This document shows, piece after piece, positions 9,735-30,289 of a stretch of DNA of 32,000 nt (positions are counted from its first letter, which is position 1; every line of letters starts with the position of its first letter). A program made the translations under genes and the position numbers. The notes beneath the pieces were generated by a model that saw nothing but the letters and a program-made list of their open reading frames with translations, ran no database searches and was not told where the DNA came from. The DNA comes from Planctopirus limnophila DSM 3776 (GTDB taxonomy: Bacteria > Planctomycetota > Planctomycetia > Planctomycetales > Planctomycetaceae). The stretch lies in assembly GCF_000092105.1 (NCBI RefSeq), contig NC_014148.1, positions 2,040,001-2,072,000 on the forward strand. The letters run 5' to 3'.

Positions 9735-9854
9735 TGGTATCAAGATTCAGGCATCAGATTCCCGAATCCCGATTCAGCACACCATTAAACTCGCCCCTCA
9801 TTTGCGAAACAGGCGATCTGCCGCATAACATCATTGTTCTCCGAAGCGTTCCAT

Positions 9855-9928
9855 GTCCCCGTAGCTCAGCTGGATAGAGCGACGGTTTCCTAAACCGTAG
9901 GTCGCGCGTTCGAATCGCGCCGGGGGCA
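9855..9928 (+). tRNA. tRNA-Arg (anticodon CCT)
   Basis: I folded it by hand. The acceptor stem is GTCCCCG/CGGGGGC. The D arm is GCTC-AGCTGGATA-GAGC. The anticodon arm is ACGGT-TTCCTAA-ACCGT with CCT at positions 34-36. The variable loop is AGGTC. The T arm is GCGCG-TTCGAAT-CGCGC and the discriminator is A. It is 74 nt with no encoded CCA. Confidence 0.93.
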
Positions 9929-10059
9929 TTTGTCCTAACCCTTTCCGAATGCTGGACTTAGCGTATTTGCCTGTGTCGGGCAGTCGTGACGGAACGAAAT
10001 CAACCGCCTCGCCCTTTCTGTGCCCCTCTGGGTTCAATTACGGCAAGTAAAACGCATCC

Positions 10060-11828: not shown

Positions 11829-12329
11829 ATGGAAAAAGTCATTCCCCGGGCAGAGCACAAGTGGTTGCAGAACATCGCTGGGAACTGGACTTATGAGTTG
11901 GAATGCTCCATGGGGCCGGATCTCACACCCGAGAAATCATCCGGTCCGATGTCTGCCCGCATGCTGGGTGATGTCTGGGTCGTGATGGAATCAGAGTCCA
12001 AGGCCCCACAGAGCGGCGAGACAGTTCACAGTGTGTGGACATTGGGCTTTGATCCCCAGAAAGAGCGAGTTGTCGGCTCTTTCGTCTGCTCCGTGATGAC
12101 CTACTTCTGGACCTATAATGGCAAGATCGATTTTGATAGCAACACGATGACTCTCGATGCCCCAGGCCCGGGTTTTGGTGATCCTTCCAGGATTGTCGAC
12201 TATCAGGATATTATTCAGTTCATTGACCAGGATTACTTCGTTCTCAGGTCACAAATGAAGCTGGAAAGCGGAGAATGGGTCCCCTTCATGCGCGGCGACT
12301 ACCGCCGCACGCCAAAAACTATCGACTGA
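11829..12329 (+). CDS. DUF1579-like protein (166 aa)
   Basis: The N-terminus EHKWLQNIAGNWTYELECSMGPD and the size match my recollection of DUF1579 proteins, which are common in Planctomycetota and Acidobacteria. This is a family-level call only. Confidence 0.75.
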   Translation: MEKVIPRAEHKWLQNIAGNWTYELECSMGPDLTPEKSSGPMSARMLGDVWVVMESESKAPQSGETVHSVWTLGFDPQKERVVGSFVCSVMTYFWTYNGKIDFDSNTMTLDAPGPGFGDPSRIVDYQDIIQFIDQDYFVLRSQMKLESGEWVPFMRGDYRRTPKTID

Positions 12330-13438
12330 TATCCGTCATCTCTTTGTAGGGTGCAAGAAGTTCCGACGGATTGCACCAACTTTCTACTATCAATACAAAA
12401 ACCCGGCAGCCACTGTCACCAGTCACCGCCGGGCTCATTAAAGTATATTTACAATAAACAGATCTACGGCATCATCAGAGCGCAACTTGAGGGTCATCCA
12501 TCGAAGTCACCTTCGAGGGATCCATCTGTGGTCTTGAATGACAATCGCTCACCAACCTCTGAGAACCTGAACTGTCACTGGGGATTCTGAGATTACACCC
12601 AGTTAACACATTCAGGCGCGTCTGTCTCTCAAGTGAGCCGCATGATCCAAAGTGAACTTTGTGTCATTCAGCAGGCCAGAAAAAACGAACCAGAGAAAAC
12701 AAACCAGAGAACAGTGTCGGTCTCTCGAATTCGAGTTGAGAGCGCAAGATGGCTCTCAAACCGGAGGGCGTCGTTCAACCCCCTCCAGCGTTCCGGCTCC
12801 AAATCAGCCGCAGATCGAAAGACATCATCCGGATTGCAACTGGAATCACACATTCCACCCGCAAGGCGCGCCAGCGATGTCCTTCTACCCTAACCAGAGA
12901 TGTTGCGCCGGAAACTATGGCAGGGTGGCCCAGACGTGGCTTTGAACGTCTGGGTGACATTTGTCACAAGAAATTCACATCAACACATAGCATGATCGGG
13001 TTGAGTATTTGATTCACCTTACCCGCTTCCTCCGCGCGTGGTGAACTTGGCATTGCCGCTGGCATACAACCAGCAGCCATACATATAACAAATCCTGCCA
13101 CCTTTGATTTCTATGGTCGCACTCAGAATCGCCATCTTCGACACCCTGCGAGACTGATTCACTCCGGCCGGAAGTGTTGGTTTCTATCCAGTTGCCGTAG
13201 CCTGCGAGGTCGCCCCACAGATTGGTGGTGGAATCCTGTGACCGGCTGCGGTCACCGATGACCACTTCTTCCGTGAGAGAACCGGCTTTGGTCCGGGATC
13301 GCCCTGACTCTGGGTGATCTCGTAGTGCAGACCAAAACCAGAGGACGCCAGACCAAACGTCATCTCGGTATGGAGATCGTCAGCCTGGGATGTCCCTGAG
13401 CCCACGTTGGACGCCACTTGATGGGTGGTACCCAAAAA

Positions 13439-13496
13439 CCCCCTGTGGTGAAGCCACCCCGGTAGAAATCAGAATTTCAACCGGGGCCACCCTGCG
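13439..13496 (+). repeat. Hairpin repeat, type 2, copy D
   Basis: The sequence is CCCCCTGTGGTGAAGCCA-CCCCGGTAGAAAT-CAGA-ATTTCAACCGGGG-CCACCCTGCG. The stem has 13 positions with one mismatch. It is about 80% identical to 17693-17750. It lies 40 nt downstream of the stop of the minus-strand gene 13537..13935. Confidence 0.8.
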
Positions 13497-13536
13497 GTAC
13501 CACCTCAAGATCGAATGTCTACACTCTCTATAATAA

Positions 13537-13940: not shown

Positions 13941-15980
13941 TCAGTTTCTCTGTGGAACTGGAATTACACCCTGTGGCAACATCTGCCAGTCAGGCGGTAT
14001 CAGAGGGTCAGTCAGCTTTAGGTGAGGTGCGCCTGGTCCATGACCTGATCTAGGACTTCCAGGAATTGTAAACAAACGGCCCTCCCTATCCTTCCAGTCA
14101 ATATGGGCAATCGCCTCTCCTCTTTCATTGAAAATTGTAGTTTGTACAGCCCGACCGTCCCTTGACAGTCTTATATGAATAGAGTTCGGGTGAGCGCCTG
14201 TCAGCTTTGGATACTCAGTTCCAATAAACACTGGCCTATTTGAGGTGCTATTTTCCGGTATTTGTGTCAACTTCTTCCGACGCTTATTTAGTTCATATGT
14301 TTTATATTCTTCTCGTGAACTAAAAGTATACAGTCCATCAGACGACTTCCATTCAAGACGCCCGTCTCCAATAAGCTGGAAGTCTATGGTTTTCTCAGGA
14401 TCAGGTGTTCTTCGTTGATTTTCCGCACGCTGAAAGAAGCTTTTCAGCTTCTCACCTGCTGCCTTAGTCTTGGGCCCTGAAGGAACAACTGTCTTGATTT
14501 TTGCCAGAGTTGCTTCGGCTTTCAACCCGGCTGCAACTTTGTCTGCTCCGGCAGTGAGCAGCGAGAAGAACACGATCCCCAGAACCCGCCCGTGCACATA
14601 TGCTCGGGTGACAGGGTCATTGTTGTACTGCTCAAACCCCTGCATGATCGAGTCGGCAATTTTTTTAGCTTCCCTGGCGACGTCAATCAGTTCTTGGCTT
14701 AAAATCCCAGTTAGCTCGTCGAACTTTCCATCCCAAAGTTTCTTCTGGGTGTCTTCATCAAGACCCGTATATTCGTAATACAGGCTGCCATAATGCTGAA
14801 CAGTGGCTGTTGTCGAAGAGACAGTGTCATGGGCCAGAACCGTGTAGCCGATTGCCGGATGAATAACAAATAGCGAGCCGTAATAGAGAGCATCGGGTGC
14901 TGCTTCGGCAAGGCCATTCAGCGCTCCTCCTACGCTATCGACCCAGAACCCTTGCATAAATCCATCAAAATACGCTCCAGAAACCTCCAATGCACTGGGA
15001 GGCTCGTTAGGATTATTGTTAAGCGGTGGTGTGCCATTCTGGCTGAAAATATAGTCATATGCCGTGAGCAGTGAGAATCCATACCAGTCATTTCGCTCTT
15101 GAAGAATCTGCGGCAACTGCAGAGCGTTCATCCGGTAAACTTTGCCACCCACCGTCCGTGACAACCCACGCCCTTCGACATATGTGGCAATGTACTCCCC
15201 TTTCTTGTCATAAATCTGATAGATACTTCCACCCGTTTGAGTCACCTGGAAGAATTTGGCAATCCCTCGTAATCCGTTCTTCAGATCCGACGGCAACGTC
15301 TCGATATCGACCCCATTGGCAGTTTTTTCGCCCACGGATGTCGGCTTTTTGACTTCACCGACTTCTTGCAGCACGGGGACATCGACAGACGGTCTGTACG
15401 GGGCGCGGTCAATCAGTGTGCCCAGGTCGTGTTCGTTGCGATTGAGGAGATCGCGGATGTGGGGATTGCTTTGCTGTTCGGCCAATCTCTCGTACGCCCG
15501 ATCCATGGCATTCCGGCTGGCTTGACCCACTTCATTGCCGGGAGCCACTGGATTCGAGGGTGTGTAGGAGCCACCTTCTGAACCACTGGCGGACTGCTCT
15601 TCTTCCAGTCGGTTCTGATCGGCACTCTTGGCAGCGGGGGCTTCATCGGGAGGTGTCTGGTTGGCCTGGCTTTGGGCCTGTTGCTGGGCGGCGTAGGCTT
15701 GCTGCTGGATCGAATCATAGCTGGGGCCGCCGTATTCGCTGCGCTGCGGTGTTTCGTTTTCGGCAGGCTTGTGATCCCAGTAATCGATCCGCCAATCCCC
15801 CGTGCGGTCGTTCTCGTAGTATTTGTAATACTGTGTATCACTGGCCCAGCCTTCACTCGACAGGTGCCAGTCACCCAGATACGAGGGTTCATAGCCTCCC
15901 ATCGCGTTGGTGAAAGCTTGAGGGATGAACGGCAGGTTGTAATAATTGTACGGAGCCAGTGCCTGATTGATCAGGCTCAT
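13941..15980 (-). CDS. Polymorphic-toxin-like protein without RHS/YD core or signal peptide (679 aa)
   Basis: The N-terminus is aromatic-rich (YNYYNLPFIPQAF...YYKYYENDRTGDWRIDYWDH). A Q/A/S-rich linker follows, then a central region and a hydrophobic helix (VLGIVFFSLLTAGADKVAAGLKA). The last 110 aa or so are a small domain (VFIGTEYPKLTGAHPNSIHIRLSRDGRAVQTTIFNERGEAIAHIDWKDREGRLFTIPGSPRSGHGPGAPHLKL). G+C drops visibly in the 3' third. A small AT-rich gene follows directly. Confidence 0.7.
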   Translation of the reverse strand: MSLINQALAPYNYYNLPFIPQAFTNAMGGYEPSYLGDWHLSSEGWASDTQYYKYYENDRTGDWRIDYWDHKPAENETPQRSEYGGPSYDSIQQQAYAAQQQAQSQANQTPPDEAPAAKSADQNRLEEEQSASGSEGGSYTPSNPVAPGNEVGQASRNAMDRAYERLAEQQSNPHIRDLLNRNEHDLGTLIDRAPYRPSVDVPVLQEVGEVKKPTSVGEKTANGVDIETLPSDLKNGLRGIAKFFQVTQTGGSIYQIYDKKGEYIATYVEGRGLSRTVGGKVYRMNALQLPQILQERNDWYGFSLLTAYDYIFSQNGTPPLNNNPNEPPSALEVSGAYFDGFMQGFWVDSVGGALNGLAEAAPDALYYGSLFVIHPAIGYTVLAHDTVSSTTATVQHYGSLYYEYTGLDEDTQKKLWDGKFDELTGILSQELIDVAREAKKIADSIMQGFEQYNNDPVTRAYVHGRVLGIVFFSLLTAGADKVAAGLKAEATLAKIKTVVPSGPKTKAAGEKLKSFFQRAENQRRTPDPEKTIDFQLIGDGRLEWKSSDGLYTFSSREEYKTYELNKRRKKLTQIPENSTSNRPVFIGTEYPKLTGAHPNSIHIRLSRDGRAVQTTIFNERGEAIAHIDWKDREGRLFTIPGSPRSGHGPGAPHLKLTDPLIPPDWQMLPQGVIPVPQRN

Positions 15981-17838: not shown

Positions 17839-20800
17839 TTAAATTCCACCCAGCTTCTTCAACAGCTTCAATAGCGTCGGTTTCTTCACCTGATCGGCTG
17901 TCACGAAGCTGAGTTTGATGACTTGTTCGCCATCCGAGTTGGTTTCAATCGCGGGGTCTTCACCCAGGTCGCGGATTTCTCCCAGGGTGATGGGTTTGCT
18001 GCCGGCGGTTCCTGCAGGGGCGAAGAGTTCAAGATCGAGGCTGCCAGTGCGTTTCGTAATGATGTTCGCCAGGACGCGGGGCTTCGCACCGGCTTTGGCG
18101 TCTGCCTTGGCAGGAACCACGCGGTACTTCACCAGCATCTTCTGCGTCCAGTCAACTTCCGCCGCCGGGAAGGTGGTCTCCATCAATTCAAACAGAGCCT
18201 CGGCAACGGCCGGTTCCCAGAGCACTTTCCCCTTCAAAAAACCTTTCCGCATGACGTGCCATTTGCGACCCAGTTTCTTCCAGGGCATCAGGTCTTCGGG
18301 ATTCGACGCCTCGGCTTTTTCGCCCAGCGAAAGATAGCTGGCCAGTGCCTCTTTGAAGAAGCTGGCGAAGGCAGGTGTGGCGACATCATCAGCCTTCGCC
18401 AGAGAGATCGTGACCTCCTGCAAGCCCCCCGCCATAGCCTTCACCCGGACTCGCTCGGCCCGGTTGTAAATGGGGAGTTCATCGAGATCGTCGATATCGA
18501 GAAGATCGAGAGATTCAGCGAGTTCCGTCTGGTCGAACGTCCCCTTCGCCACGCGGAACTTGGCCTGCAGCAGCCATTCATCGCCCGTCAGTGCATGAAT
18601 AAACCAGCTGGGAATCCCTTTCGATTTAGCTTCAATCACACTGCGATCATTCCAGACAACAGTGACGCCTGAATCCTCCTCTAACGGTTCAAAGATCGTT
18701 TCCAGAAGCGAGACAGGCCATTTCGCAGGACGACCCGAATTGGCCAGGTGATCGACCAGATGCCACTTGCGGCCATCGACCTCCCAGGGCATTTTGGCAC
18801 TCTTGCCGAGCGACTTGAGATCAAGATCATCCCGTCGGCGCGCGAGGGCGGCCTTCGCATCAAAGACTTCGCGGGCTCCCTTGCGGCTCGCTTCCAGAAC
18901 CGGGGCGAGACATTGAGCAGTCAACGAGACATGCTGCTGAGGATTTTTCTTCGATGGGTCATCATCTGGAACTTCCCCTTGAGCGATGCGGACGAGATCT
19001 TCAGGAGTTCCCGTCGCCACGATGTAGCCCCCTTCGCTGCCGGCAGCGGGGCCGAGATCAACAATCCAGTCGCAGGTTTTGATCACATCGAGGTTGTGTT
19101 CAATGACGACGACGGTATTCCCCGCATCGACCAGGCTTTGCAGGATCTTGAGCAGCTTGCGGATATCATCAAAATGGAGGCCTGTCGTTGGCTCATCCAG
19201 CAGGTAAAGGGTGCTGCCAGTACTGGGACGGGCGAGTTCAGCCGCGAGCTTGACGCGCTGGGCCTCGCCGCCGGAAAGGGTCGGCGCAGGCTGGCCGAGG
19301 GTCAGATAACCGAGACCAATCGCATCAAGAACTGCCAGCGGCCCGCGAATTTTGGGGAAGCTCTCAAACAACTTGACGGCTTCGGAAATGGGCATCTCAA
19401 GCACATCGGCAATGTTCTTCCCCTGGAACTTGACCGCCAGAGTTTCAGGATTGTAGCGGCGTCCGTGGCAGGTATCGCACTCGACCCAGAGATCGGGGAG
19501 GAAGTGCATTTCAATGAGTTTCTGGCCATTCCCTTCGCAGGTCTCGCAGCGACCACCAGCCCGGTTGAAGCTGAAGCGGGCGGGTCGATATCCGCGCACC
19601 TTTGATTCAGGAAGATGAGCAAACAGCTCACGAATGTGTTCGAAGACGCCTGTATAAGTCGCGGGGTTGGAGGCAGGGGTGTTTCCGAGTGGCTGCTGAT
19701 CGACAACAATCAACTTGCTGAGGTAATCCAGCCCGAGAAGTTCATCGTATGGCCCGGGCTGTTCGCTCGAACGATGCAGTTTGCGGGCAATGGCTTTGCC
19801 GAGAGTGTCGGCGATCAAGGAGCTTTTGCCACTTCCGGACACACCCGTGATGGCTGTCAGTGCCCCCAGAGGAATCCGCAAATCAACATTGCGAAGATTG
19901 TTCTGGCGGGCCCCAATCAACTCCAGCCAGAAGAGAGGCTTGCTTGCAGAAGCCTTGGTTGTGGCTGCCACCTGAGCCTTGGCCTTCCCTTTCGTCGCAG
20001 CACCTGATTTCGCCCGATCAACTGGTGCCTGGCTTCTGCCAAACCTCGCAGGGACACGGCGTTCGGTCGGAACGAGAATATCTTCCTTAAGAGAGAGAAA
20101 TCTGCCCGTGAGCGAGTCGTCGCAGTGTTCGATCTCGTGTGGTGTTCCTTCCGCTGTGACAAGGCCACCCAACCTGCCAGAACCGGGGCCGAAATCGTAC
20201 AATCGATCGGCGGCTGCGAGAACTTCGCGATCATGCTCGACGAGCACCACAGTGTTGCCAAGATCGCGCAGCTTCTTCAGTGCCTGCAGCAGACGCCCGT
20301 TATCGCTGGGATGCAGCCCGATGGTCGGTTCATCGAGAACATACAGCACACCTGTCAACGCCCGGCCCAACTGACCCGCTAATCGAATCCGCTGGCTTTC
20401 TCCGCCGGATAGCGTCGGAAGTGTGCGGCTCAAGGTGAGGTAATGCAGACCGACATCAACCAGAAAATCAAGGCGACCAGCCCCTTCTTCCAGCAGGTCT
20501 CCCGCGATCTTCTGTTGGGTTTTGTTGAGTGTAAGTCCATGCAGAAACTCTTGAGCTTTATTGAGTGGCAATTCGCACAACTGCTGCAAAGTCTTCCCTT
20601 GCAGGCGCACGGCAGAGGCATCTTCTCTCAAGCGGCTGCCACTGCATGAAGAGCAGGGAACTTCACCAATCAAATCGAACAGCGATTGGCGGAATGAGTA
20701 CGAAACGCGTGAGGCTTCTTCGAGAGCCGGGTACAGCCCTTTGAACTGGAAGCGGTATTTGACGGCTTGATCGGCCGTGGATGATTTCTTCGATTTCGCT

Positions 20801-23800
20801 GCTGCTTTGGTGCTCGACTTTTTGGCCGCTGCGGGCTGAGCCACCTGGTAAACCGTGAACCACTGCTCGCCAGCCCCGAAGAGAACCAGTCGCTGCTCAG
20901 CCGGTTCGAGCTGATTAAATGGCGTGTCGAGCGAAAGGCCGACTCCCCGGCTCAGGGCGTCCAACAGTTCGAACATTGCGGGAGATTGCCGAGGGTCTGG
21001 CCAGGCCGAAATGGCTCCTTCGCGTAAAGTTCGTGTGGGATCACCAATGAGAGCCGCAAGGTTCGTGCCCTGCTGAGTGCCCAGACCTTCACAGCTTTCG
21101 CACCATCCCAAGGGACTGTTGAACGAGAAGTTGTGTGGTGCCAATGTCTCAAAACTTCTGCCGCATTGCGAGCAGGCACGAAACAGACTGAAGGGCTGAA
21201 CTTTCCACGAGTTCTCCGGCTTGTCGTCATCGACGAAGGCGACACGAATCACGCCTTTGCCCTGATCAAAGGCTGCCTCGACAGAATCAGCCAGACGGCG
21301 GCGGCTGCCCGAGGCAATCGTGACGCGATCAATGACAATTTCGACGACATGCTTTCGCCGGCGGTCGATTTCGGGAACTTCTTCCAGTCGATAGGTGGTG
21401 CCGTCCACACGTACCCGGCTGAAGCCCTGTTCTTTCAGCCGTTCCCACACTTTGGCGTACTGCTGGCCAACGGGAACTTCCTGCGGTGCCAGAACCAGCA
21501 GTCTGGTGCCTTCCGGCTTGGCCATGAGGAGATCGATCACATCGTCGGTGGTTTGCGATTCCACCGCGATGCGACAGTCGGGGCAATGTTGCGTTCCCAG
21601 GCGGGCATAGAGGACACGCAGATAATCGTAAATTTCCGTCGTGGTGCCGACCGTCGAGCGCGGCGTGTGGCCGACCGTCTTCTGCTCAATCGCAATCGAA
21701 GGCTGAAGACCGTGAATATGCTCGACTTTGGGCTTGGGCATCTGACCAAGAAACTGCCGGGCATACGACGAAAGGGACTCGACGTATCGCCGCTGGCCTT
21801 CCGCGTAGAGCGTATCCATGGCGAGTGACGTTTTGCCGGAACCACTGGGGCCACAGAAGACACTCATCTGATCGCGAGGGATATCGAGACTGATTTTCTG
21901 CAGGTTGTGCTGGGAGGCCCCGCGAATGACGATGTTGGTCTGTGCTTCACGGTCTTGCTGCTTGAGTGGCAAAGCTGCTTGCCAGCGGGAAGGTGAAGCG
22001 ACTTTTGTCTCAGGAGGAAAAGTTCGAGCCACACTTTTTTGTGGCATCTCAACCACGTGATCTGCCGTGCTTTTGCGTCTTTTCTTCGTTCCCTGCCCCT
22101 TGCCAGTGGAGGTGGCTGCGGACCCCAGTGAAACGGGCTGAGATATTGATCGACCGCTCGCCTCAAGGACTCTGGCCAGAAAGCGACCCGTGTATGAGGC
22201 CTCACATTGGGCCACCATTTCTGGTGTCCCCTGTGCGATAATCCTGCCACCACCTTTGCCACCTTCGGGCCCCAGATCGATCACCCAGTCGGCCGTCTTG
22301 ATGACATCAAGATTATGCTCCACGACAATGACGGTATTCCCGGCATCCACAAAGCCATGCAACACCCGCAGCAGGTGGGCGATATCAACGAAGTGCAGGC
22401 CAGTTGTCGGTTCGTCGAGAATGTAGACGGTTTTGCCAGTGCTGCGTTTGCCAAGTTCTTTCGCGAGTTTAATCCGCTGAGCTTCACCACCAGAGAGGGT
22501 AGGAGAGGGCTGCCCCAGCTTGATGTAGTCGAGGCCCACATCGTGCAAAGTCTGCAGCAGATTTTTGATCTTGGGGAGGTTTTCAAAATGTTCAAGTGCC
22601 GTCTGAACATCCATATCGAGGACTTCAGCAATGTTCTTACCCTTGAAACGCACCTCCAGCGTCTCTTTATTAAATCGGCGTCCCTGGCAGACCGGGCAGG
22701 TCACCCAGATATCGGCAAGAAAGTCCATTTCAAGCTTGTTCGAACCATGCCCTTCGCAGGCCTCGCAACGACCGCCAGGGACGTTAAAACTGAAGCGTCC
22801 CGGCTTAAACCCGCGGGTTTTAGAATCGGGAAGTTGTGTGTAAAGATCACGAATCAGGTCGAAGAGTTTGACATAGGTGGTAGGGTTCGACCGGGGTGTA
22901 CGACCAATCGGTGACTGATCAATATCGATGGCCTTATCGACCAATGCGAGATTGTCAAAACTCTGATGAGCACCGGGAGCACCTTCACCAAGATTGACTT
23001 CGCGATTGAGCAGCGGCCACAGAATATCGTTAATCAGCGAGCTCTTCCCTGAACCGGAAACACCGGTCACGCAGATGAACTTCCCCAGTGGAAACTCGAC
23101 ATCGACATTTTGCAGGTTGTGATGCGTGCAACCTTGTATCGAGATGGATGTTCCTATTCCTGAGCGACGTGTTTCGCGGATTTCGATCTGCTTGCGGCCG
23201 GAGAGATAAGCTCCCGTTTCACTTTCTTCATTCGCCAGAAGTGCCTCAAGACTCCCTTCATGAACAACTTTTCCACCACGAACACCGGGGCCGGGGCCAA
23301 AGTCGATAATGTGATCGGCAGCCTTCATCGTTTCATCGTCATGCTCCACCACGATCACGGTATTACCCTGATCGCGAAGATCCTGCAGGCTCCCCAGCAG
23401 CATTTCGTTATCGCGAGGGTGCAGGCCAATCGATGGTTCATCGAGAATATAAACCACACCCACAAGGCCACAGCCAATCTGCCCAGCCAGACGAATCCGC
23501 TGACTTTCTCCACCACTGAGCGTCGGTGCCGTCCGATCCAGCGCGAGGTAATCGAGACCGCAGCGCAAAAGAAAACCCAGGCGGCCACGAATCTCTTTAA
23601 GAACTTCTTCAGCGATATATTGCGAAGTCGGATCCAGATCGAGCTGTTCAAAAAACTCGAAAGCTTCACCCACACTGAGATGGCAAACCCCAGGAAGTGA
23701 CAGACGCTGTTTTTTCGCCTGGGAAGCCGCCGATGAGGAACCGCTGCGTGCTATCGCCGGCGTAGTCATCTCCAATGCTTGGCTGGAGATAAAATAGTTG

Positions 23801-25143
23801 CAGGCCTGAGCGTTGAGTCGCGAACCGTGGCAAGTGCTGCACCCCACGACTTCCATATACTTTTCAAGCTGCCTGCGGCGCATCGGGTTTTTGGCTTTAC
23901 GGTACTCTTCGAGCAGTTCGCGGACATAGCCTGTGTACTTCCCACCATGCTTCCACACTCCGCCCGAGTGCTTGAAACTGTACGTCACATGCTGATTGCC
24001 CAGCCCATCCAGGAAGAGATCGCGCGCCCCCTGGGGCAGTTCATTCCACGGGGTTTTCAGGAACTCACCGGGCTTGAGGCTCAGTGTTTTTTCAATCGCC
24101 GCAGCCACGCCATCAATGAGATGCCTGCGCCAACGGCCCAGCTTGGAAAGTTTACCTGAAAGTGCGAGTGCTCCCTTCTGGATAGAAAGGGATTCATCGG
24201 GAATGAGCCGATCAAGTAAAAAATCGTGCCGCATCCCGAGACCGTTGCAGTCGGCACACATCCCTTGAGGGCTGTTGAAACTGAAAAGTTGCGGCGAGGG
24301 AGGATCGTAACTGATACCGCAATGGGTGCAGGCATAAGCCGTGGCAAAAAACTGTTCGCTCGGATTCTCCTGAGACGGCGAATCGTCTTCACTCTGAATA
24401 GCGGCAGAGAGGAATTCTTCGGGAGAATCCTGCAAAACAATGAGTTGCCCATTCGCCAGTTTGAGCGCATTTTCTACAGCTTCGGCCACACGCTGGCGAG
24501 TCGATTTCCCGGCCACCAGGCGGTCAATCACCACATCAATCGTGTGCTTCATCTGCTTATCAAGCTGCAGACTTTCGCTCAGCGAAATGAATTTGCCATC
24601 AACCCTGGCGCGGAGATAACCCTGCTTGAGAAGATCAACGAAAAGATCCTTAAACTCACCCTTCTGACGCTGAATGAGTGGTGCCAGGATCTGAAACTTT
24701 GTTCCGGCAGGTAAAATGAGAATCTGCTCGACGATGTTCTCAGGAGACTGGGAAGTGATCGGGCGATGGCATTGGTGGCATTCGGCTTGGCCAACCCGGG
24801 CAAACAGCACTCGCAGGTAATCGTATATCTCGGTGATCGTACCCACGGTACTGCGCGGATTTCGACCAGCCGTTTTCTGTTGAATCGAGATCGAAGGAGC
24901 CAGCCCGGTGATCGAATCGACATCCGGCTTGGGCATCGATCCCAGGAATTGCCTCGCGTACGTCGAGAGGGATTCGATGTACCGCCGTTGACCTTCGGCG
25001 TAGAGCGTATCAAAGGCGAGAGAGCTCTTGCCCGAGCCACTGACGCCCGTCATAACAATCAGTTTGTTCTTGGGCAAAACCAGGCTGACGTCACGCAGAT
25101 TATGTTCTCGGGCACCACGAATCGTGATTTCAGATCTGGTCAT
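17839..25143 (-). CDS. uvrA: Tandem UvrA-UvrA fusion protein with extra C-terminal region (2434 aa, four ABC ATPase modules)
   Basis: Unit 1 is residues 1-995 (22159..25143). It begins [16 protein letters not shown]...[36 protein letters not shown]. It carries [12 protein letters not shown] with [11 protein letters not shown], then [27 protein letters not shown] and [11 protein letters not shown]. Unit 2 is residues 1069-2085 (18889..21939). It begins [16 protein letters not shown]...[36 protein letters not shown]. It carries [12 protein letters not shown] with [11 protein letters not shown], then [27 protein letters not shown] and [11 protein letters not shown]. Both units keep the CxxC zinc modules and the segments at the positions of the UvrB-binding and insertion domains. 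The reading frame is uninterrupted. Confidence 0.95.
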
Positions 25144-25851: not shown

Positions 25852-27114
25852 ATGGACTCTGCAGGTACTGCCCGTGATGCGTTATCCGCTGCGATGGTTG
25901 AACGCGTACAGGGATTGCGTCTACCGCCACCCCCTGCCAATGCGGGAATCAACGCTTCCACCTCGATTGCCTGGCTGATTGCCACACTATCGATTTCTGG
26001 TTTCGTGTTTATCTTCCTGTTCGCCTTTGTCTACCAGGTGGGTGGCCCTCGCGGCAGCAATGCCCCAGCCTCGACGACCGTCGCTGGTGATGGGAAGACC
26101 ACAACTGCGGGGTCCAAAAAGGATCCCTCAGCTCCTGCAAACAGTGATGCCCGTCCCGTCGACGCTGCTGCTGTCGATCCGGAAGCGATGGTGCTCTTGT
26201 CACAGGGTTATATCATCCCGGAACAGCAGATTCTGGTCAGCCCGCAGGTGAGTGGCCGGATTATTGAATTGAACGTCAAGGAAGGAACTCGCGTGGAAAA
26301 AGGATTCGTCCTCGCGAAACTGGAACCCACGGAATATCGGGCTGATTATGAAGGAGCCAGAGCCAACGTGGCTGCTGCTGAAGCCAGGCTGGCTGAGTTG
26401 CGTGAAGGAAACCGGCCCGAGGAAATCGCTCAAGCTCAGGCCGAACTGGGCGAAGCCAAAGCGACATTAAAACAGCTGGAACAAACCTTCCGCCGCAATG
26501 CCGAGCTCTACGGACAAAAGATTCTCAACAAGCAGGAGTTTGAAGATTCGGAGTCACTGCTCATGGCCCAGGCCCAGCGCGTGCTCAAGCTGGAAGCGAT
26601 GGTCAAGCTGGCCGAAGATGGCTTCCGTAAAGAGCGGAAACTGGAAGGTGAAGCGAACCTGCATAAAGCGATGGCAGAACTGGAAAGAGCCAAGTGGCGC
26701 CTGGATAACTGCACGATCGCGGCACCAATCTCCGGCACGATTCTGAAGAAAAATGCCGAAGAGGGGAACATTGTGAACCCCGTAGCTTTCAATGGCTCTT
26801 TCAGTTTGTGCGACCTGGCCGATCTTTCGAAGCTCGAAGTCGATCTGACCATTCAGGAACGGGATATTTCGAAGGTTTTCCCGGGCCAGAAATGCAAAGT
26901 CCGTTCGGAAGCTTTTCCCGATCGCGCTTACGACGGTGTGGTCTCACGATTGATGCCCATTGCAGACAGAGCCAAAGGGGCCATTCCTGTTCGTGTGGCG
27001 ATCAGTGTCCCAGCCGATGAAGAGGGCATGTACCTGAAGCCCGAAATGAGTGCCCAGGTGACGTTCTATGCCGGAAAAGCAGAAACAAAACCTGCCACGA
27101 TGAGTGCCGAATAA
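25852..27114 (+). CDS. HlyD/MacA-type periplasmic adaptor (membrane fusion protein, 420 aa) with no transporter partner in the window
   Basis: There is an N-terminal TM anchor (IAWLIATLSISGFVFIFLFAFVY). The lipoyl motif is ILVSPQVSGRIIELNVKEGTRVEKGFVLAKLE. A long coiled coil follows (ANVAAAEARLAELREGNRPEEIAQAQAELGEAKATLKQLE). The remaining blocks are TIAAPISGTILKKNAEEGNIV and the beta-barrel tail. Confidence 0.9.
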   Translation: MDSAGTARDALSAAMVERVQGLRLPPPPANAGINASTSIAWLIATLSISGFVFIFLFAFVYQVGGPRGSNAPASTTVAGDGKTTTAGSKKDPSAPANSDARPVDAAAVDPEAMVLLSQGYIIPEQQILVSPQVSGRIIELNVKEGTRVEKGFVLAKLEPTEYRADYEGARANVAAAEARLAELREGNRPEEIAQAQAELGEAKATLKQLEQTFRRNAELYGQKILNKQEFEDSESLLMAQAQRVLKLEAMVKLAEDGFRKERKLEGEANLHKAMAELERAKWRLDNCTIAAPISGTILKKNAEEGNIVNPVAFNGSFSLCDLADLSKLEVDLTIQERDISKVFPGQKCKVRSEAFPDRAYDGVVSRLMPIADRAKGAIPVRVAISVPADEEGMYLKPEMSAQVTFYAGKAETKPATMSAE

Positions 27115-27127
27115 TTCGCCAGATGGC

Positions 27128-27161
27128 GGGTGACCCCGACCGTCTCGCGGTTGGGTCACCC
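27128..27161 (+). terminator. Stem-loop just after the adaptor gene stop, a possible terminator
   Basis: GGGTGACCC (27128-27136) and GGGTCACCC (27153-27161) form a perfect 9-bp stem with a 16-nt loop. No T-run follows, so any terminator function is uncertain. Confidence 0.3.
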
Positions 27162-27391
27162 GGCGACAAGATGCCACACCCTGCGCGTGCCATGTTCGAA
27201 CACTTCGAATTAAGCAGAGCAATGTTTTGCTGGTAACCTTTGGGCATCAGGGAAAATTGTCCATCGACGATGAACCGTGTTTGATGCAGGTCATCCGGCT
27301 CTCCGGCTGATGGTGCACCTCGGTGAGGATTGACACGCAACGGCATGGGCTGTCGTGAGACTAAACAGCCTCTGGGCCCCTCTCTCCATGT

Positions 27392-27772
27392 TCACTCACC
27401 AACGCACCCTCTTGTGCCGCTGGCAGGCGGGTCGCTCGACGACCACGAGCAATCTGTACCACCCTGCGAAGTTAGGATTGGTGGCTCAGGCGTGCATTCG
27501 ATCGTGGGTTTGACTTGGCAGGTTTGTATTGCTGTTGCGGGGATGCTGATGTTCGCGGACAGGTTTCCTGGCGGTGTGGTCAGGGTTGTTGATCCCAGCG
27601 TAGCGCCGGATTGATCCTTCACCATGACGAGAGTGGGGGTGTCGTCGCTGGAATCACGGTAAACGGTGGCGGTGAGGGTGAGGTTGCCGGTGGCGGGTTT
27701 CAGGAGGGGGACCAGGGGGAAGCTGGCGGAGGGTGTGGCGGGGTTGGGGGTTTCGACAGTTCGTGTGGTCAT
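27392..27772 (-). CDS. Doubtful small T/P/S-rich ORF (126 aa); its 3' end is supplied by repeat copy A
   Basis: The beta-strand-like segment GNLTLTATVYRDSSDDTPTLVMVKDQSGATLGSTTLTTPPGNLSANISIPATAI looks protein-like. However, the whole region is C-rich and purine-poor on this strand, and that bias alone keeps frames open. The same frame is stop-free upstream to 27994 without any start codon. Confidence 0.25.
   Translation of the reverse strand: MTTRTVETPNPATPSASFPLVPLLKPATGNLTLTATVYRDSSDDTPTLVMVKDQSGATLGSTTLTTPPGNLSANISIPATAIQTCQVKPTIECTPEPPILTSQGGTDCSWSSSDPPASGTRGCVGE
27407..27468 (+). repeat. Hairpin repeat, type 1, copy A
   Basis: The sequence is CCCTCTTGTGCCGCTGGCAGGCGGGTCGCTCGACGACCACGAGCAATCTGTACCACCCTGCG. 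It shares its left arm and the GGTCGCTCGA core with copies B and C. It shares the right arm CCACCCTGCG with the type 2 copies. Confidence 0.75.
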
Positions 27773-27968
27773 GGGAGAGGCTTTTCGGGAATGGGGTGGG
27801 GAAAGGAGCGGGAGAGAAGGGGTTGGGGATGGGTTTGGTTCGAGGTGGATGGGGGAGGGAGTTGTGAAGAGCGGAAGGGAAATGGGAGAGGAAAAGAAAC
27901 CGGCCGCCAGGGATGACGGCCGGGGTTGAGGGGGTGGGGATGGAAATGGGTCAGGAAGGAAGTCTGAG
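27773..27968. repeat. Strongly strand-asymmetric low-complexity tract, G-rich on plus and C/T-rich on minus
   Basis: My hand count is about 103 G against about 17 C in 196 nt of the plus strand. Most of the C lies in one hairpin. G-runs are numerous, for example GGGGTTGAGGGGGTGGGGATGGAAATGGG at 27922-27950 and GGGAATGGGGTGGGGAAAGGAGCGGG at 27787-27812. The bias continues to about 27600. Confidence 0.85.
27886..27925 (-). terminator. Rho-independent terminator candidate on the minus strand, inside the C-rich tract
   Basis: On the minus strand CCGGCCG-tcatccctgg-CGGCCGG (27923-27900) is followed by TTTCTTTTCCTCT. It lies downstream of the orphan cassette's small gene. Confidence 0.45.
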
Positions 27969-28044
27969 TCGTTTTGAACTGGGTTCAGGTGGAGTCAGTG
28001 GGTTTCAGCAGGTCGCAGAAGAGACACTCGCTGGCCAACCAATA

Positions 28045-28465: not shown

Positions 28466-30289
28466 TCAGTCAACTCGGTGTATTTCAAGACCTGATGGGT
28501 CTTCAACGTATATTTCGGGCCAGCCTCCCGGTCGTCCAATCGGATTATCTTCCGCTTTCTCAGCGGGCTGGATTCTAAATTTCTTACGAGGAATTTCCGC
28601 AGAAACAGTCCAGTCCGGCGTCGAGTTTCCAGCTGGAATTCCATATCGTTCATTAAAATTTGGAATGGTATCTGGGCGATTGTATGTCCAATAGCTGCCA
28701 TCTGGCTTGTTAAAGCCTGTCGTCCCTGATCGATAACAAGTCAACGATTTTGGGGTTTTGGGAATGCAGCAGGCTGCAATCTTCGGTAGCGTGCTTCGAA
28801 TGTTTCGAACAACTTCCCCAGCGCGTTTGTAGACGCTTTTTCCTATCGCGCTGAAACCACCGACGTCATTGACAGAATCCCTGACCAGATCCTTGGCCAT
28901 CTTGCAGCACTGGCCGTTTCGCTCCAAGCAATCCGAAAAATTATTGCTACTCCAGAGCTCTGACAATTCGGGCTTTAGTTGAGATTCCAAGAATTCCCAC
29001 ATCTTCTTCAACGCCTGGATTTCTCGGAGCCCTGAATAGACATCCCATGCCAGCCAGGCAGCGGCGATTATGTCCCCAATAGGTAGTGGGCCATCTGCTG
29101 CAAGCAAGATGGCTGATCGCGCTCCAGCTTTTAACGCACGTTTTCCAACTAGTGCTGCAATTTTTACTGACAACACTTGGAAAAGCGCCTCCCCGAAGGC
29201 TGCTCCCATATTACACCCGGCCAATCCAAGAGGATCGATCAAAGCCAGTGGGCGCCCGCTAACGTAAGAATAAAGATTGTTGCCTTCATCGAGGATATGT
29301 GGGTCACGAACCAGCCAGCCGATTAGTACGTGAAGCTGTCGGTATCGCACACAATACAAAGAGGTGTTTGTGTCAAAACGGTAGCCTGCATACAGTGTCT
29401 CCCATTCTAGAATATTTCCCGTCAAGCTAAAGGCGTCGTCTAGGAATGTGGCCATTCCGTAAGCGTCGTATTCGTATCTTGCATGAACAACGCCATCTGC
29501 TGCGACGACTACACTCGTATTCCAGTTGTCTTCTTGAAGTGAGTAGTGTCGAACAGCAGGAGGTTCGTCACTAATGATGCTTCGATCGCGTAGGATGAGG
29601 TCGTCCAGATACCTGGCTCCCCACACGAAGTGACTATTCGTACCTTCCAGTACACCTTTTAGTTCTTCAACACACTGCCAGGCATCGGTGAAGTAGGCGT
29701 GGGTGGTTTCATCGAGGGCGCCGGAGTTGTAGTTTTTGACGACGACTCGGAAGTTTCTCGCGTCGTATTGGTATTCGGCGACGGTTTCTAACGTGCTGGA
29801 GACTTCTTCCTCCAGTTTGACCAACCGGTTCCAGGCGTCGTAGGTGGCCGTGTAGGCTTCGTCCATCTGTTTGGGTTTGGGAATCGTGGTCATGTTGCCG
29901 ACGGCGTTGTAGGCCGGGTCGGCCCAGGCGCTGCCCACCGTGTTGGTGATGTCTGTGATTTCATTCACTGGGTTGGCAGTGCGTTCCTGTTCGATACTCC
30001 AGGTGGAGCCGTTATCGCTTTGCTTAAACCCTTCCCAGTTGCCAGTGGGGTCGAGGTTCCAATCCTGCTTGAACGCGGTGGATGCCAGAGCGGTTTGGGT
30101 GCCGTTGAGTGTGCCGCGGTGGGCGGTCTTTAACCGCTGGAGGCCGTCGTAGGTGTAGAGCCAGTCGTATTGGGCACTGTGGGCGGTGGCGATAGGGTTC
30201 TTCCGCCAGATGCGGTTCGAGGCGCGGTCGTAGCCGTACTTGATGCGGTCGAGATCGGTCCCCGCTTTGTGCCAGCGGTTGTCCTTCAC
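28466..30289 (-). CDS. Orphan, 5'-truncated RHS repeat protein fragment: about 356 aa of YD-repeat/RHS core plus a 251-aa C-terminal toxin region
   Basis: The YD repeats are YGYDRASNRI, YTYDGLQRL, ATYDAWNRLV, YQYDARNFRV and YEYDAYGMA. The core end is YAGYRFDTNTSLYCVRYRQLHVLIGWLVRDPHILDEGNNLYSYVSGRPLALIDPLGL, with DPLGL ending at 29222. The frame stays YD-like upstream of the GTG start (FFRLDRFGRVKDNRW) but meets a TAA about 14 codons further up. The usual >1000-aa N-terminal RHS shell is therefore absent. Confidence 0.85.
   Translation of the reverse strand: MKDNRWHKAGTDLDRIKYGYDRASNRIWRKNPIATAHSAQYDWLYTYDGLQRLKTAHRGTLNGTQTALASTAFKQDWNLDPTGNWEGFKQSDNGSTWSIEQERTANPVNEITDITNTVGSAWADPAYNAVGNMTTIPKPKQMDEAYTATYDAWNRLVKLEEEVSSTLETVAEYQYDARNFRVVVKNYNSGALDETTHAYFTDAWQCVEELKGVLEGTNSHFVWGARYLDDLILRDRSIISDEPPAVRHYSLQEDNWNTSVVVAADGVVHARYEYDAYGMATFLDDAFSLTGNILEWETLYAGYRFDTNTSLYCVRYRQLHVLIGWLVRDPHILDEGNNLYSYVSGRPLALIDPLGLAGCNMGAAFGEALFQVLSVKIAALVGKRALKAGARSAILLAADGPLPIGDIIAAAWLAWDVYSGLREIQALKKMWEFLESQLKPELSELWSSNNFSDCLERNGQCCKMAKDLVRDSVNDVGGFSAIGKSVYKRAGEVVRNIRSTLPKIAACCIPKTPKSLTCYRSGTTGFNKPDGSYWTYNRPDTIPNFNERYGIPAGNSTPDWTVSAEIPRKKFRIQPAEKAEDNPIGRPGGWPEIYVEDPSGLEIHRVD

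What the first reader, a model, noticed from the sequence alone, without database searches (positions are those of the whole stretch)
17842..18888. Internally duplicated unknown module with an MPW-x3-GRKWH motif at the C-terminus of the UvrA fusion
About 350 more residues follow the second UvrA unit, which ends near ...CLAPVLEA. They form two related modules starting at residues 2118 and 2286, a period of 168 aa. The first begins [37 protein letters not shown]. The second begins [36 protein letters not shown]. Each continues into a beta-rich region and ends with an amphipathic helix. I cannot place this module in any family from memory. It sits on a DNA-damage sensor, so it could be a DNA-end or lesion reader, or a partner-recruitment domain.
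Basis: seen in the sequence. Interest (0 to 1): 0.6.

Follow-up and report, generated by a model that had tools for sequence, protein, structure and literature searches.

The report
Duplicated unknown domain on planctomycete UvrA
The giant double-length DNA-damage sensor UvrA of Planctopirus limnophila ends in two copies of a well-folded domain that matches no described family, is conserved on this protein in hundreds of planctomycete species, and has an unknown role in DNA repair.

Summary
The ORF at 17839..25143 (-) encodes a 2434-aa protein identical to Planctopirus limnophila UvrA (ADG67428.1). It holds two complete class-I UvrA units (43% identical to each other) followed by a 349-aa tail, aa 2086-2434 (nt 17842-18888).

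The tail is a 32-aa conserved connector plus two homologous modules that start at aa 2118 and aa 2286. Each module opens with P-W-x3-G-x2-W-H. The duplication is significant: Smith-Waterman z = 12.5 (0 of 2000 shuffles), and profile-profile E = 2e-16 with probability 98.7%.

AlphaFold2 models are confident (pLDDT 92-93). Each module reads as a short Trp-rich cap, then alpha-beta4-alpha-beta2-long alpha.

No library places the module: Pfam, NCBIfam, PHROGs, PADLOC, PDB sequences, Foldseek against PDB and Foldseek against BFVD all gave nothing significant. Only sub-threshold fold resemblances recur, to type III secretion chaperones and to the phage T4 MotA DNA-binding domain.

The module pair was found in at least 586 species genomes, essentially all labelled Planctomycetota. 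It was always at the end of a double UvrA, always in two copies, and never convincingly stand-alone. It is under purifying selection: 45% and 34% identity for the two modules, against 17% for the inter-unit linker.

Function is inferred only. I favour a non-catalytic, pseudo-dimeric binding platform for DNA or a repair partner. This is a new, lineage-specific variant of a known protein and is moderately interesting.

The parts
17839..25143 (-). uvrA ORF, 2434 aa plus stop codon. Identical to Planctopirus limnophila DSM 3776 ADG67428.1 / WP_013109859.1, 'excinuclease ABC, A subunit'.
   Evidence: NCBIfam NF001503 at 2535 bits (cut-off 1147)
22162..25143 (-). UvrA unit 1 (aa 1-994). Complete class-I UvrA with two Walker A motifs, two LSGGE signatures, CxxC zinc modules, and the UvrA_inter and UvrA_DNA-bind domains.
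21919..22161 (-). Inter-unit linker (aa 995-1075). Poorly conserved, median 17% identity among 51 full-length orthologues.
18889..21918 (-). UvrA unit 2 (aa 1076-2085). 43% identical to unit 1 over 1069 columns. Ends with ...CLAPVLEA.
18793..18888 (-). Conserved connector (aa 2086-2117). Consensus r..FD.........GD......G..AK. Lower model confidence (pLDDT 63-75).
18289..18792 (-). Module 1 (aa 2118-2285). A Trp/His-rich cap, then alpha-beta4-alpha-beta2-long alpha. The better conserved copy, with an acidic loop L.L..L.DLDELP.YG. Net charge -13 in this protein.
18760..18792 (-). Motif [11 protein letters not shown] of module 1 (aa 2118-2128). P, W, W and H are invariant across both modules.
17842..18288 (-). 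Module 2 (aa 2286-2434). Same topology, without the acidic loop. Has a basic cap, [20 protein letters not shown]. Net charge +8 in this protein.
18256..18288 (-). Motif [11 protein letters not shown] of module 2 (aa 2286-2296).

Best explanation
Shown: the last 349 residues of this tandem (covalently 'dimerised') UvrA are a conserved connector plus two homologous copies of an autonomous alpha/beta domain of about 150-170 aa. This domain pair is a lineage-specific, selectively maintained part of the UvrA of Planctomycetota. It belongs to no described family.

Inferred mechanism: the two copies pack as an intramolecular pseudo-dimer. They act as a non-catalytic accessory binding platform hanging from the C-terminus of UvrA unit 2. 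From my knowledge of solved UvrA-DNA structures such as 3PIH, that is the end of the protein next to ATP-binding domain II and the C-terminal zinc finger that line the DNA groove.

I commit to an auxiliary DNA contact as the most likely role. The conserved basic cap of module 2 (PWK.LGRKWH..RKGF..GK) would contact the backbone. The highly conserved Trp/His/Arg/Glu surface of module 1 would act as a second recognition surface. Together they would help the fused UvrA hold or position DNA during damage search and hand-over to UvrB.

Confidence that it is a real, folded, duplicated, conserved and unclassified domain pair is at least 0.95. Confidence in the DNA-contact mechanism is about 0.35. The confidence field (0.35) refers to the mechanism.
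For: Real and duplicated:
- (E = 2e-16; z = 12.5).

Folded:
- AlphaFold2 pLDDT 92.2 and pTM 0.73 for the whole tail; pLDDT 93.2 and pTM 0.87 for module 1.
- A pTM of 0.73 for a two-domain chain suggests a defined mutual packing. This is an inference, because no PAE was available.

Conserved and specific:
- At least 586 species genomes, nearly all labelled Planctomycetota.
- In 80 fetched loci the match lies about 2050-2350 aa into ORFs of 2340-2630 aa that carry 3-4 Walker A motifs. It is always followed by about 305-320 aa holding both modules.
- The 346 relatives in the 1.84-billion-protein library, judged from the 150 best that are listed and the long ones I read or scanned against Pfam, are UvrA tails or fragments.
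- The profile search found only UvrA fragments, including Phycisphaerae.

Purifying selection:
- Module 1 is 45% and module 2 is 34% identical across 51 full-length orthologues, against 17% for the inter-unit linker.

DNA hint:
- T4 MotA C-terminal dsDNA-binding domain recurs among the best fold matches (1kaf: probability 0.98, TMt 0.53-0.55 with the whole tail; 0.57/0.47 with module 1; MotA proteins again in BFVD).
- Module 2 is net positive in 21 of 26 orthologues, with a conserved K/R-rich cap.
- Six conserved Trp and two conserved His in module 1.
- The two-fold duplication fits a two-fold symmetric ligand, either dsDNA or the UvrA pseudo-dimer.
Against: - No fold match reaches significance. 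The best E-values are 3.6e-3 to 4.6e-3, TM-scores are 0.55 or lower, and rmsd is 5-10 A.
- Type III secretion chaperones, which bind peptides and not DNA, rank as high as MotA or higher.
- Module 1 is acidic in this protein (-13) and its net charge varies from -11 to +8 among orthologues. That is not what a generic DNA binder looks like.
- No known DNA-binding family was detected by sequence.
- Gene neighbourhood gives no hint.
- I could not inspect model coordinates, so which conserved residues are exposed is inferred only from strand periodicity.
Confidence: 0.35

Rival explanations
1. Partner-docking platform. The pseudo-dimer works like a type III secretion chaperone dimer. It binds an extended peptide of another protein (UvrB, UvrC, Mfd, RNA polymerase or a planctomycete-specific factor), or one of UvrA's own Lys/Ala-rich loops. 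In this way it recruits or regulates partners rather than touching DNA.
For: - SycH is the top hit for module 1 (4gf3: E = 4.6e-3, probability 0.92).
- Several other class-I chaperones recur in both PDB searches (1ttw, SpcU, CesT, SycN/YscB, AvrPphF ORF1, VecA). So does Arp2/3 subunit ARPC2, a tandem duplication of a similar fold.
- From general knowledge, these chaperones act as dimers. That fits a tandem duplication.
- Module 1 is acidic with a conserved acidic loop.
- In Tuwongella immobilis all UvrABCD subunits fractionate differently from E. coli, in the SDS fraction (PMC8567305). That is compatible with extra interactions.
Against: - The fold matches are not significant (TMt 0.38-0.41, rmsd 7-10 A).
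- No Tir-chaperone-clan Pfam model hits any of 52 module sequences at E <= 10.
- No conserved neighbouring gene that could encode a partner was found in 64 loci.
Confidence: 0.3
2. Intramolecular structural or regulatory element. The two modules dock symmetrically onto the two fused UvrA units, one module per unit. They stabilise or gate the head-to-head arrangement that free UvrA achieves by dimerisation. An example would be autoinhibition, with the acidic loop of module 1 acting as a DNA mimic.
For: - The stoichiometry is two UvrA units plus two modules in every complete ORF examined.
- The module was never found on a single-length UvrA.
- There is a conserved acidic loop in module 1 and a basic cap in module 2.
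- The connector between unit 2 and module 1 is conserved.
Against: - Both modules lie after unit 2 rather than one after each unit. The duplication is therefore not a by-product of the uvrA duplication.
- There is no structural model of the full-length protein.
- The surface of module 1 is more conserved than a pure spacer or brace would need.
Confidence: 0.17
3. Small-ligand-binding or catalytic domain. The invariant His, Thr, Arg and Glu residues on the sheet of module 1 (R82, E86, H98, T101, R112, R146 and E158 in tail numbering) would form an active or ligand site. Module 2 would be a degenerate copy.
For: - Module 1 keeps many more conserved polar residues than module 2.
- Mean column identity is 56% for module 1 against 44% for module 2. 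This asymmetry is typical of an active copy paired with a degenerate copy.
Against: - No similarity to any enzyme family by sequence or fold.
- No metal-binding or nucleophile motif is recognisable.
- The conserved charged residues could equally be inter-strand salt bridges or contacts with the Trp-rich cap.
Confidence: 0.1
4. Not a functional feature: a degenerate spacer, an annotation read-through or an assembly artefact.
For: Two metagenome-assembled contigs separate the tail from the gene, one by an in-frame TAG and one by a frameshift.
Against: - The identical 2434-aa protein occurs in the finished P. limnophila genome and in independent assemblies.
- Hundreds of species keep the reading frame and both modules.
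- Model confidence is high and purifying selection is evident.
- The TAG in L084 falls inside the canonical UvrA C-terminal helix region, not at the module boundary. It therefore looks like an error or a pseudogene.
Confidence: 0.02

Closest known systems
Class I UvrA (E. coli, Geobacillus stearothermophilus 2r6f, Thermotoga maritima 3pih, Mycobacterium tuberculosis 3zqj)
   Same: Each of the two units has the full class-I architecture: two ABC ATP-binding domains, signature domains, zinc modules, the UvrB-binding domain (UvrA_inter) and the insertion domain (UvrA_DNA-bind). NCBIfam NF001503 and TIGR00630 score far above their cut-offs.
   Different: Canonical UvrA is about 940 aa, works as a non-covalent dimer and ends at the position of '...APVLEA'. 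Here two units are fused in one chain and followed by a 349-aa tail with no counterpart in any solved UvrA. PDB matches of profile A1 stop at profile position 120, which is the ABC part.
Double-length UvrA of Planctomycetes as described in PMC8567305 (Tuwongella immobilis proteome study), and the chlamydial long UvrA model NF001885 (PRK00635)
   Same: [quoted passage not shown] That paper states this is general for Planctomycetes.
   Different: The text and figure legend that I read annotate domains with Pfam only and do not mention a C-terminal domain pair. The protein here scores 1322 bits against NF001885, whose cut-off is 3054, so it is not that equivalog. Whether chlamydial long UvrA has any tail was not tested.
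Phage T4 MotA C-terminal 'double-wing' dsDNA-binding domain (PDB 1kaf, 5jlt)
   Same: Small alpha/beta domain with an antiparallel sheet flanked by helices. It is a recurrent best-probability Foldseek match (probability up to 0.98, TMt up to 0.55, rmsd 5-6 A) in PDB and BFVD.
   Different: E-values of 0.03-0.18 are not significant. Identity is 6-10%. The module is 50-60 aa longer, with a Trp-rich N-terminal cap and a long C-terminal helix. No Pfam hit to a MotA model.
Class I type III secretion chaperones (SycH 4gf3/1ttw, CesT 5wez/5z38, SpcU 3tu3) and the secretion-chaperone-like fold in general
   Same: The order of secondary-structure elements (alpha-beta3-alpha-beta2-alpha) is similar to the module's alpha-beta4-alpha-beta2-alpha. 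These chaperones function as dimers, which parallels the tandem duplication. SycH is the top Foldseek hit for module 1 (E = 4.6e-3, probability 0.92).
   Different: TMt is only 0.38-0.41 and rmsd is 7-10 A. The module has one extra strand. There is no sequence-level signal. The context is cytoplasmic DNA repair, not secretion.
YjbR/MmcQ family (PF04237), whose E. coli gene lies next to uvrA
   Same: From my memory of the literature, YjbR has a MotA-C-terminal-like fold and is annotated as DNA-binding. E. coli yjbR ends 35 bp from the uvrA stop codon, in convergent orientation.
   Different: hhalign of both module profiles against E. coli YjbR gives probability below 1%. No PF04237 hit in 52 module sequences. 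No YjbR structure is among the top 50 Foldseek matches.

Membership tests
Class I UvrA (NCBIfam NF001503 / TIGR00630) | Whole-protein score above the curated cut-off | tested here: met
   NF001503 scores 2535 bits (cut-off 1147). TIGR00630 scores 2439 bits (cut-off 730)..
Class I UvrA (NCBIfam NF001503 / TIGR00630) | Two ABC ATP-binding domains per unit, each with Walker A and an LSGGE signature, plus CxxC zinc modules | tested here: met
   GVSGSGKS at aa 33, 694 and 1767, plus GPSGSGKT in unit 2 read from the translation. LSGGE at aa 542, 883, 1578 and 1956. Six CxxC pairs per unit.
Class I UvrA (NCBIfam NF001503 / TIGR00630) | UvrB-binding domain and insertion (DNA-binding) domain, which distinguish class I from class II UvrA | tested here: met
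   PF17760 UvrA_inter (E = 3e-71) and PF17755 UvrA_DNA-bind (E = 6e-28), two stretches each..
Chlamydial long UvrA (NCBIfam NF001885, PRK00635) | Whole-protein score above the curated cut-off | tested here: not met
   1322 bits against a cut-off of 3054..
   hhalign E = 2e-16 over 140 columns. Smith-Waterman z = 12.5, and z = 5.4 without the motif.
T4 MotA C-terminal double-wing domain | Significant sequence or profile match | tested here: not met
   No MotA Pfam model hit in 52 module sequences at E <= 10. No PDB sequence hit.
T4 MotA C-terminal double-wing domain | Significant structural superposition | tested here: inconclusive
   Foldseek E = 0.03-0.18, probability 0.57-0.98, TMt 0.47-0.55, rmsd 5.3-6.0 A. 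MotA proteins in BFVD at E = 0.08-0.4.
T4 MotA C-terminal double-wing domain | Sequence-specific dsDNA binding | not testable with these tools
   Needs a gel-shift assay or a structure with DNA.
Type III secretion class I chaperones (Tir-chaperone clan) | Significant sequence or profile match | tested here: not met
   No CesT, SycE, YbjN or similar Pfam hit in 52 module sequences at E <= 10.
Type III secretion class I chaperones (Tir-chaperone clan) | Significant structural superposition | tested here: inconclusive
   Best hit is SycH 4gf3: E = 4.6e-3, probability 0.92, but TMt 0.38 and rmsd 10 A.
YjbR/MmcQ (PF04237) | Profile match to the family or to E. coli YjbR | tested here: not met
   hhalign probability 0.1% and 0.4%. 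No PF04237 hit. A family-level profile-profile comparison was not run.
Any Pfam-A / NCBIfam / PHROGs / PADLOC family | Hit on aa 2086-2434 | tested here: not met
   Only scattered single-member hits at E >= 0.045.

The most novel reading that the evidence does not exclude
The module pair is a new domain family, possibly a new fold variant. It would give planctomycete nucleotide excision repair a function absent from the textbook UvrABC system. Examples are a built-in second lesion or DNA-structure reader, or a docking site for a lineage-specific repair or chromatin partner. It would have evolved together with the covalent fusion of the UvrA dimer. It would then be a handle on why this phylum rebuilt an otherwise almost invariant bacterial repair protein.
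Probability: 0.25. Interest if true: 0.65.

Novelty: new variant of a known kind. Interest (0 to 1): 0.45.

Why it matters
UvrA is one of the most conserved and best-studied bacterial repair proteins, and its architecture is nearly invariant. In Planctomycetota the dimer has been fused into one chain. This analysis shows that the fusion always carries an extra, confidently folded, duplicated domain pair that no database names.

If the tail binds DNA or a partner, it defines a lineage-specific layer of damage recognition or hand-over. It would also supply a new domain family for annotation; at present hundreds of genomes simply read 'excinuclease ABC subunit A'.

P. limnophila is genetically tractable, and uvrB is non-essential in its Tn-seq data (PMC10632474 supplement). 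The question can therefore be tested directly by truncation.

If the tail is only a structural brace, the finding stays a modest annotation improvement.

Tried and rejected
1. Family assignment by sequence gave nothing. Pfam and NCBIfam were run on the whole protein and on the tail. Pfam was run on each of 26 + 26 orthologous module sequences at E <= 10; this returned only scattered single hits (SsgA 0.089, DUF1801 0.096, Tudor 0.08). PHROGs and PADLOC returned nothing.

2. PDB sequence searches gave nothing usable. Profile A1 matched only through its ABC-domain columns. The module profiles A2, A3 and A4 gave nothing better than E = 0.12.

3. Fold searches had no hit at E <= 1e-3. LAGLIDADG meganuclease, MscS, kinase and glutamate dehydrogenase matches have TM-scores of 0.1-0.2 and rmsd of 15-27 A, so I rejected them as string-level noise.

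4. The search for stand-alone or differently fused copies found none. This covers an exhaustive phmmer run against 1.84 billion representatives, a profile search with both modules combined, Pfam architecture of the longer hits, and reading of the candidates. All are UvrA tails or fragments. P0114 is an MnmE-UvrA chimera, probably a mis-call.

5. Two apparently separate tail genes on long contigs turned out to be something else. One is a frameshift overlap and the other an in-frame TAG inside the UvrA C-terminal helix. I rejected these as natural gene fission.

6. The YjbR lead (gene adjacent to E. coli uvrA) was rejected by hhalign.

7. A WGR-domain idea (W..GR.W) was rejected: no PF05406 hit and the motif spacing differs.

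8. Gene context was uninformative. Neighbours in the window are unrelated (AcrB/HlyD efflux, ArgJ, rhomboid, O-methyltransferase). No conserved downstream gene was found in 64 loci.

9. Literature searches found the tandem-uvrA statement only and nothing on the tail.

10. I ran no further search on a YjbR family profile. The expected yield was low.
Full report
**What is there**

The window holds one very long ORF on the minus strand, 17839..25143, 2434 codons. An exact look-up identifies it as the 'excinuclease ABC, A subunit' of Planctopirus limnophila DSM 3776 (ADG67428.1 / WP_013109859.1). Orthologues 91-98% identical occur in P. hydrillae and P. ephydatiae.

NCBIfam and Pfam show two complete class-I UvrA units. 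A self-BLAST aligns aa 3-996 with aa 1068-2086 at 43% identity. Each unit has its Walker A motifs, LSGGE signatures and CxxC zinc modules. The fusion of two uvrA genes in Planctomycetes is already in the literature (PMC8567305). That text annotates domains with Pfam only and does not mention a C-terminal domain.

**Check of the observation**

- 'CLAPVLEA' ends unit 2 at aa 2085.
- [11 protein letters not shown] starts at aa 2118 and [11 protein letters not shown] at aa 2286, a period of 168 aa.
- Nt 17842-18888 equals aa 2086-2434.

The two halves are related well beyond chance.
- BLASTP gives 39 bits, with a pairwise E of 3e-9.
- The Smith-Waterman score is 95, against 30 +/- 5 for 2000 shuffles (z = 12.5).
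- After removing the shared 16-residue motif the score is still z = 5.4.
- Profiles of 26 orthologous copies of each half align over 140 columns, with hhalign probability 98.7% and E = 2e-16.
- A joint MAFFT alignment shows what both copies share: P-W-x3-G-x2-W-H, then G, W, L, W, V, T and L at fixed positions.

**Anatomy**

AlphaFold2 with a 63-sequence alignment gives a confident model of the tail: mean pLDDT 92.2 and pTM 0.73. Only the first 30 residues, the connector, fall to 63-75. Module 1 alone gives pLDDT 93.2 and pTM 0.87.

Each module has two short helices that carry the PW...WH motif, a longer helix, four antiparallel strands, a helix, two more strands and a long C-terminal amphipathic helix.

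The two modules differ in three respects.
- Module 1 has an extra conserved acidic loop (L.L..L.DLDELP.YG) between the middle helix and strand 5. Module 2 lacks it.
- Module 1 is the better conserved copy, with 56% mean column identity against 44% for module 2. It keeps many invariant or nearly invariant polar and aromatic residues: W35, W42, H43, W57, R82, E86, W95, H98, T101, W105, R112, Y141, R146, Q157 and E158 in tail numbering.
- Module 2 keeps a basic cap (PWK.LGrKWH..rkGfp) and is net positive in 21 of 26 orthologues. The net charge of module 1 ranges from -11 to +8 among orthologues and is -13 here.

From strand periodicity, several of the conserved charged residues of module 1 would lie on one face of the sheet. 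I could not inspect coordinates, so this is inference.

**Distribution**

Of these, 586 were confirmed by tblastn. The 80 best are all from Planctomycetota-labelled genomes or MAGs (Planctomycetaceae, Schlesneria, Planctomicrobium, Thalassoglobus, Fuerstiella, Pirellulales, Anatilimnocola), apart from a few oddly labelled MAGs.

In these loci the match lies about 2050-2350 codons into ORFs of 2340-2630 codons with 3-4 Walker A motifs wherever the contig allows. It is always followed by about 305-320 codons holding both modules.

An exhaustive phmmer search of 1.84 billion representative proteins found 346 relatives. The 150 listed are UvrA tails, full-length double UvrAs or gene-call fragments. 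A profile built from both modules together found only further fragments, including some from Phycisphaerae.

Two contigs that seem to encode the tail as a separate gene are explained otherwise. One shows a frameshift overlap. The other shows an in-frame TAG that lies inside the canonical UvrA C-terminal helix, not at the module boundary. So the module is known only on the tandem UvrA of Planctomycetota and always as a pair.

Across 51 full-length orthologues the median identity to the query is as follows:

| Segment | Median identity |
|---|---|
| UvrA unit 1 | 67% |
| UvrA unit 2 | 63% |
| Inter-unit linker | 17% |
| Connector | 41% |
| Module 1 | 45% |
| Module 2 | 34% |

The tail is therefore under purifying selection but evolves faster than the ATPase core.

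**What it resembles**

No sequence library places it: Pfam, NCBIfam, PHROGs, PADLOC and PDB sequences. Foldseek against 350,542 PDB chains and against BFVD gives no hit at E <= 1e-3 with either model.

Two kinds of small alpha/beta domain recur just below threshold.
- Class I type III secretion chaperones: SycH at E = 4.6e-3 and probability 0.92, but TMt 0.38; also CesT, SpcU, SycN/YscB and VecA. The tandem-duplicated Arp2/3 subunit ARPC2 appears too.
- The C-terminal dsDNA-binding domain of phage T4 MotA: probability up to 0.98, TMt up to 0.55, rmsd 5-6 A.

From memory, E. coli YjbR shares the MotA-like fold. I found that its gene sits 35 bp from the uvrA stop codon, in convergent orientation. 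However, hhalign of both module profiles against YjbR is negative, with probability below 1%. I therefore file the module under no known family. The resemblance is at most at the level of general architecture.

**How it most likely works**

Shown: this is a folded, duplicated, conserved, lineage-specific appendage of a covalently fused UvrA dimer.

Inferred: the two copies form an intramolecular pseudo-dimer. The pTM of 0.73 for the two-domain chain and the dimeric habit of the nearest folds point that way. The pair would serve as a non-catalytic binding platform at the C-terminal end of unit 2. In solved UvrA-DNA complexes that end neighbours the DNA-binding groove (established knowledge, not tested here).

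I favour an auxiliary DNA contact, at about 0.35. The reasons are the MotA-like hits, the basic cap of module 2, the abundance of conserved Trp and His, and a two-fold repeat that matches a two-fold ligand.

The rivals are:
- A chaperone-like docking site for a partner or for UvrA's own Lys/Ala-rich loops (about 0.30).
- An intramolecular brace or autoregulatory element, one module per UvrA unit (about 0.17).
- A ligand-binding or catalytic role for module 1, with module 2 degenerate (about 0.10).
- An artefact or spacer, which is excluded.

Gene neighbourhood gives no help. Neighbours in the window are unrelated, and no downstream gene is conserved in 64 loci.

**Novelty and verdict**

The tandem UvrA is known. 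The C-terminal duplicated domain pair appears to be undescribed and unclassified in the libraries and papers available here.

It is a new variant of a known kind: UvrA with a novel accessory domain family. It is real and widespread within one phylum, and its function is unknown but testable in a tractable organism. I rate interest at 0.45. It is worth a domain-family description and a truncation experiment, but on present evidence it does not change how nucleotide excision repair is understood.

Noticed in passing
window 20749-20853 (aa 1431-1465) and 19924-20028 (aa 1706-1740), minus strand: There are two Lys/Ala/Ser/Thr-rich low-complexity inserts inside UvrA unit 2, for example [19 protein letters not shown] and [25 protein letters not shown]. 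They are reminiscent of histone-H1-like tails. Relatives carry much longer versions: P0126 has about 270 aa before ATP-binding domain II. Some also have a 40-60 aa Lys-rich insert inside module 1, after its first long helix.
   Followed up: partly
window 21919-22161 (aa 995-1075), minus strand: The linker between the two UvrA units is essentially unconserved (median 17% identity in 51 orthologues). The connector before module 1 is conserved (41%, with invariant-like FD...GD...G).
   Followed up: partly
window 28466-30289 (-) and 13941-15980 (-): Two large ORFs (607 and 679 aa) have no Pfam hit and lie in lower-GC stretches (0.47-0.49). The 607-aa ORF contains an RHS-core-end-like 'IDPLGLAG' followed by an unknown C-terminal region and small downstream ORFs. 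This looks like a polymorphic toxin plus immunity arrangement.
   Followed up: no
window 27001-28000: There is a strong positive GC skew (+0.285) and GC of 0.585, with no ORF above 126 aa, no tandem repeat and no Rfam hit. This is unexplained.
   Followed up: partly
window 9854-9929 (+): tRNA-Arg (anticodon CCT). It is the only RNA gene found in the window.
   Followed up: yes
L082 (E. coli K-12 NC_000913.3 4270658-4273871): E. coli yjbR (PF04237) ends 35 bp from the uvrA stop codon, in convergent orientation. No detectable relation to the planctomycete modules.
   Followed up: yes
L084 7953-7955 and L083 8001-8041: In two metagenome-assembled genomes the tail is called as a separate gene. L084 has an in-frame TAG just before 'SWTGEMLAPVL'. 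L083 has a 41-nt frame overlap. These are probably sequencing errors or pseudogenes, not natural fission.
   Followed up: partly
L035, L050, L062: Contigs carrying the double UvrA with the tail are labelled 'Candidatus Kuenenia sp.' and 'Deltaproteobacteria bacterium'. Their tails are 44-48% identical to the query, like those of Planctomycetaceae. The bins may therefore be mislabelled or contaminated.
   Followed up: no
window 11829-12329 (+): A DUF1579 protein (E = 1.7e-53), followed by about 1.2 kb (12330-13536) without any ORF of 100 aa or more.
   Followed up: no
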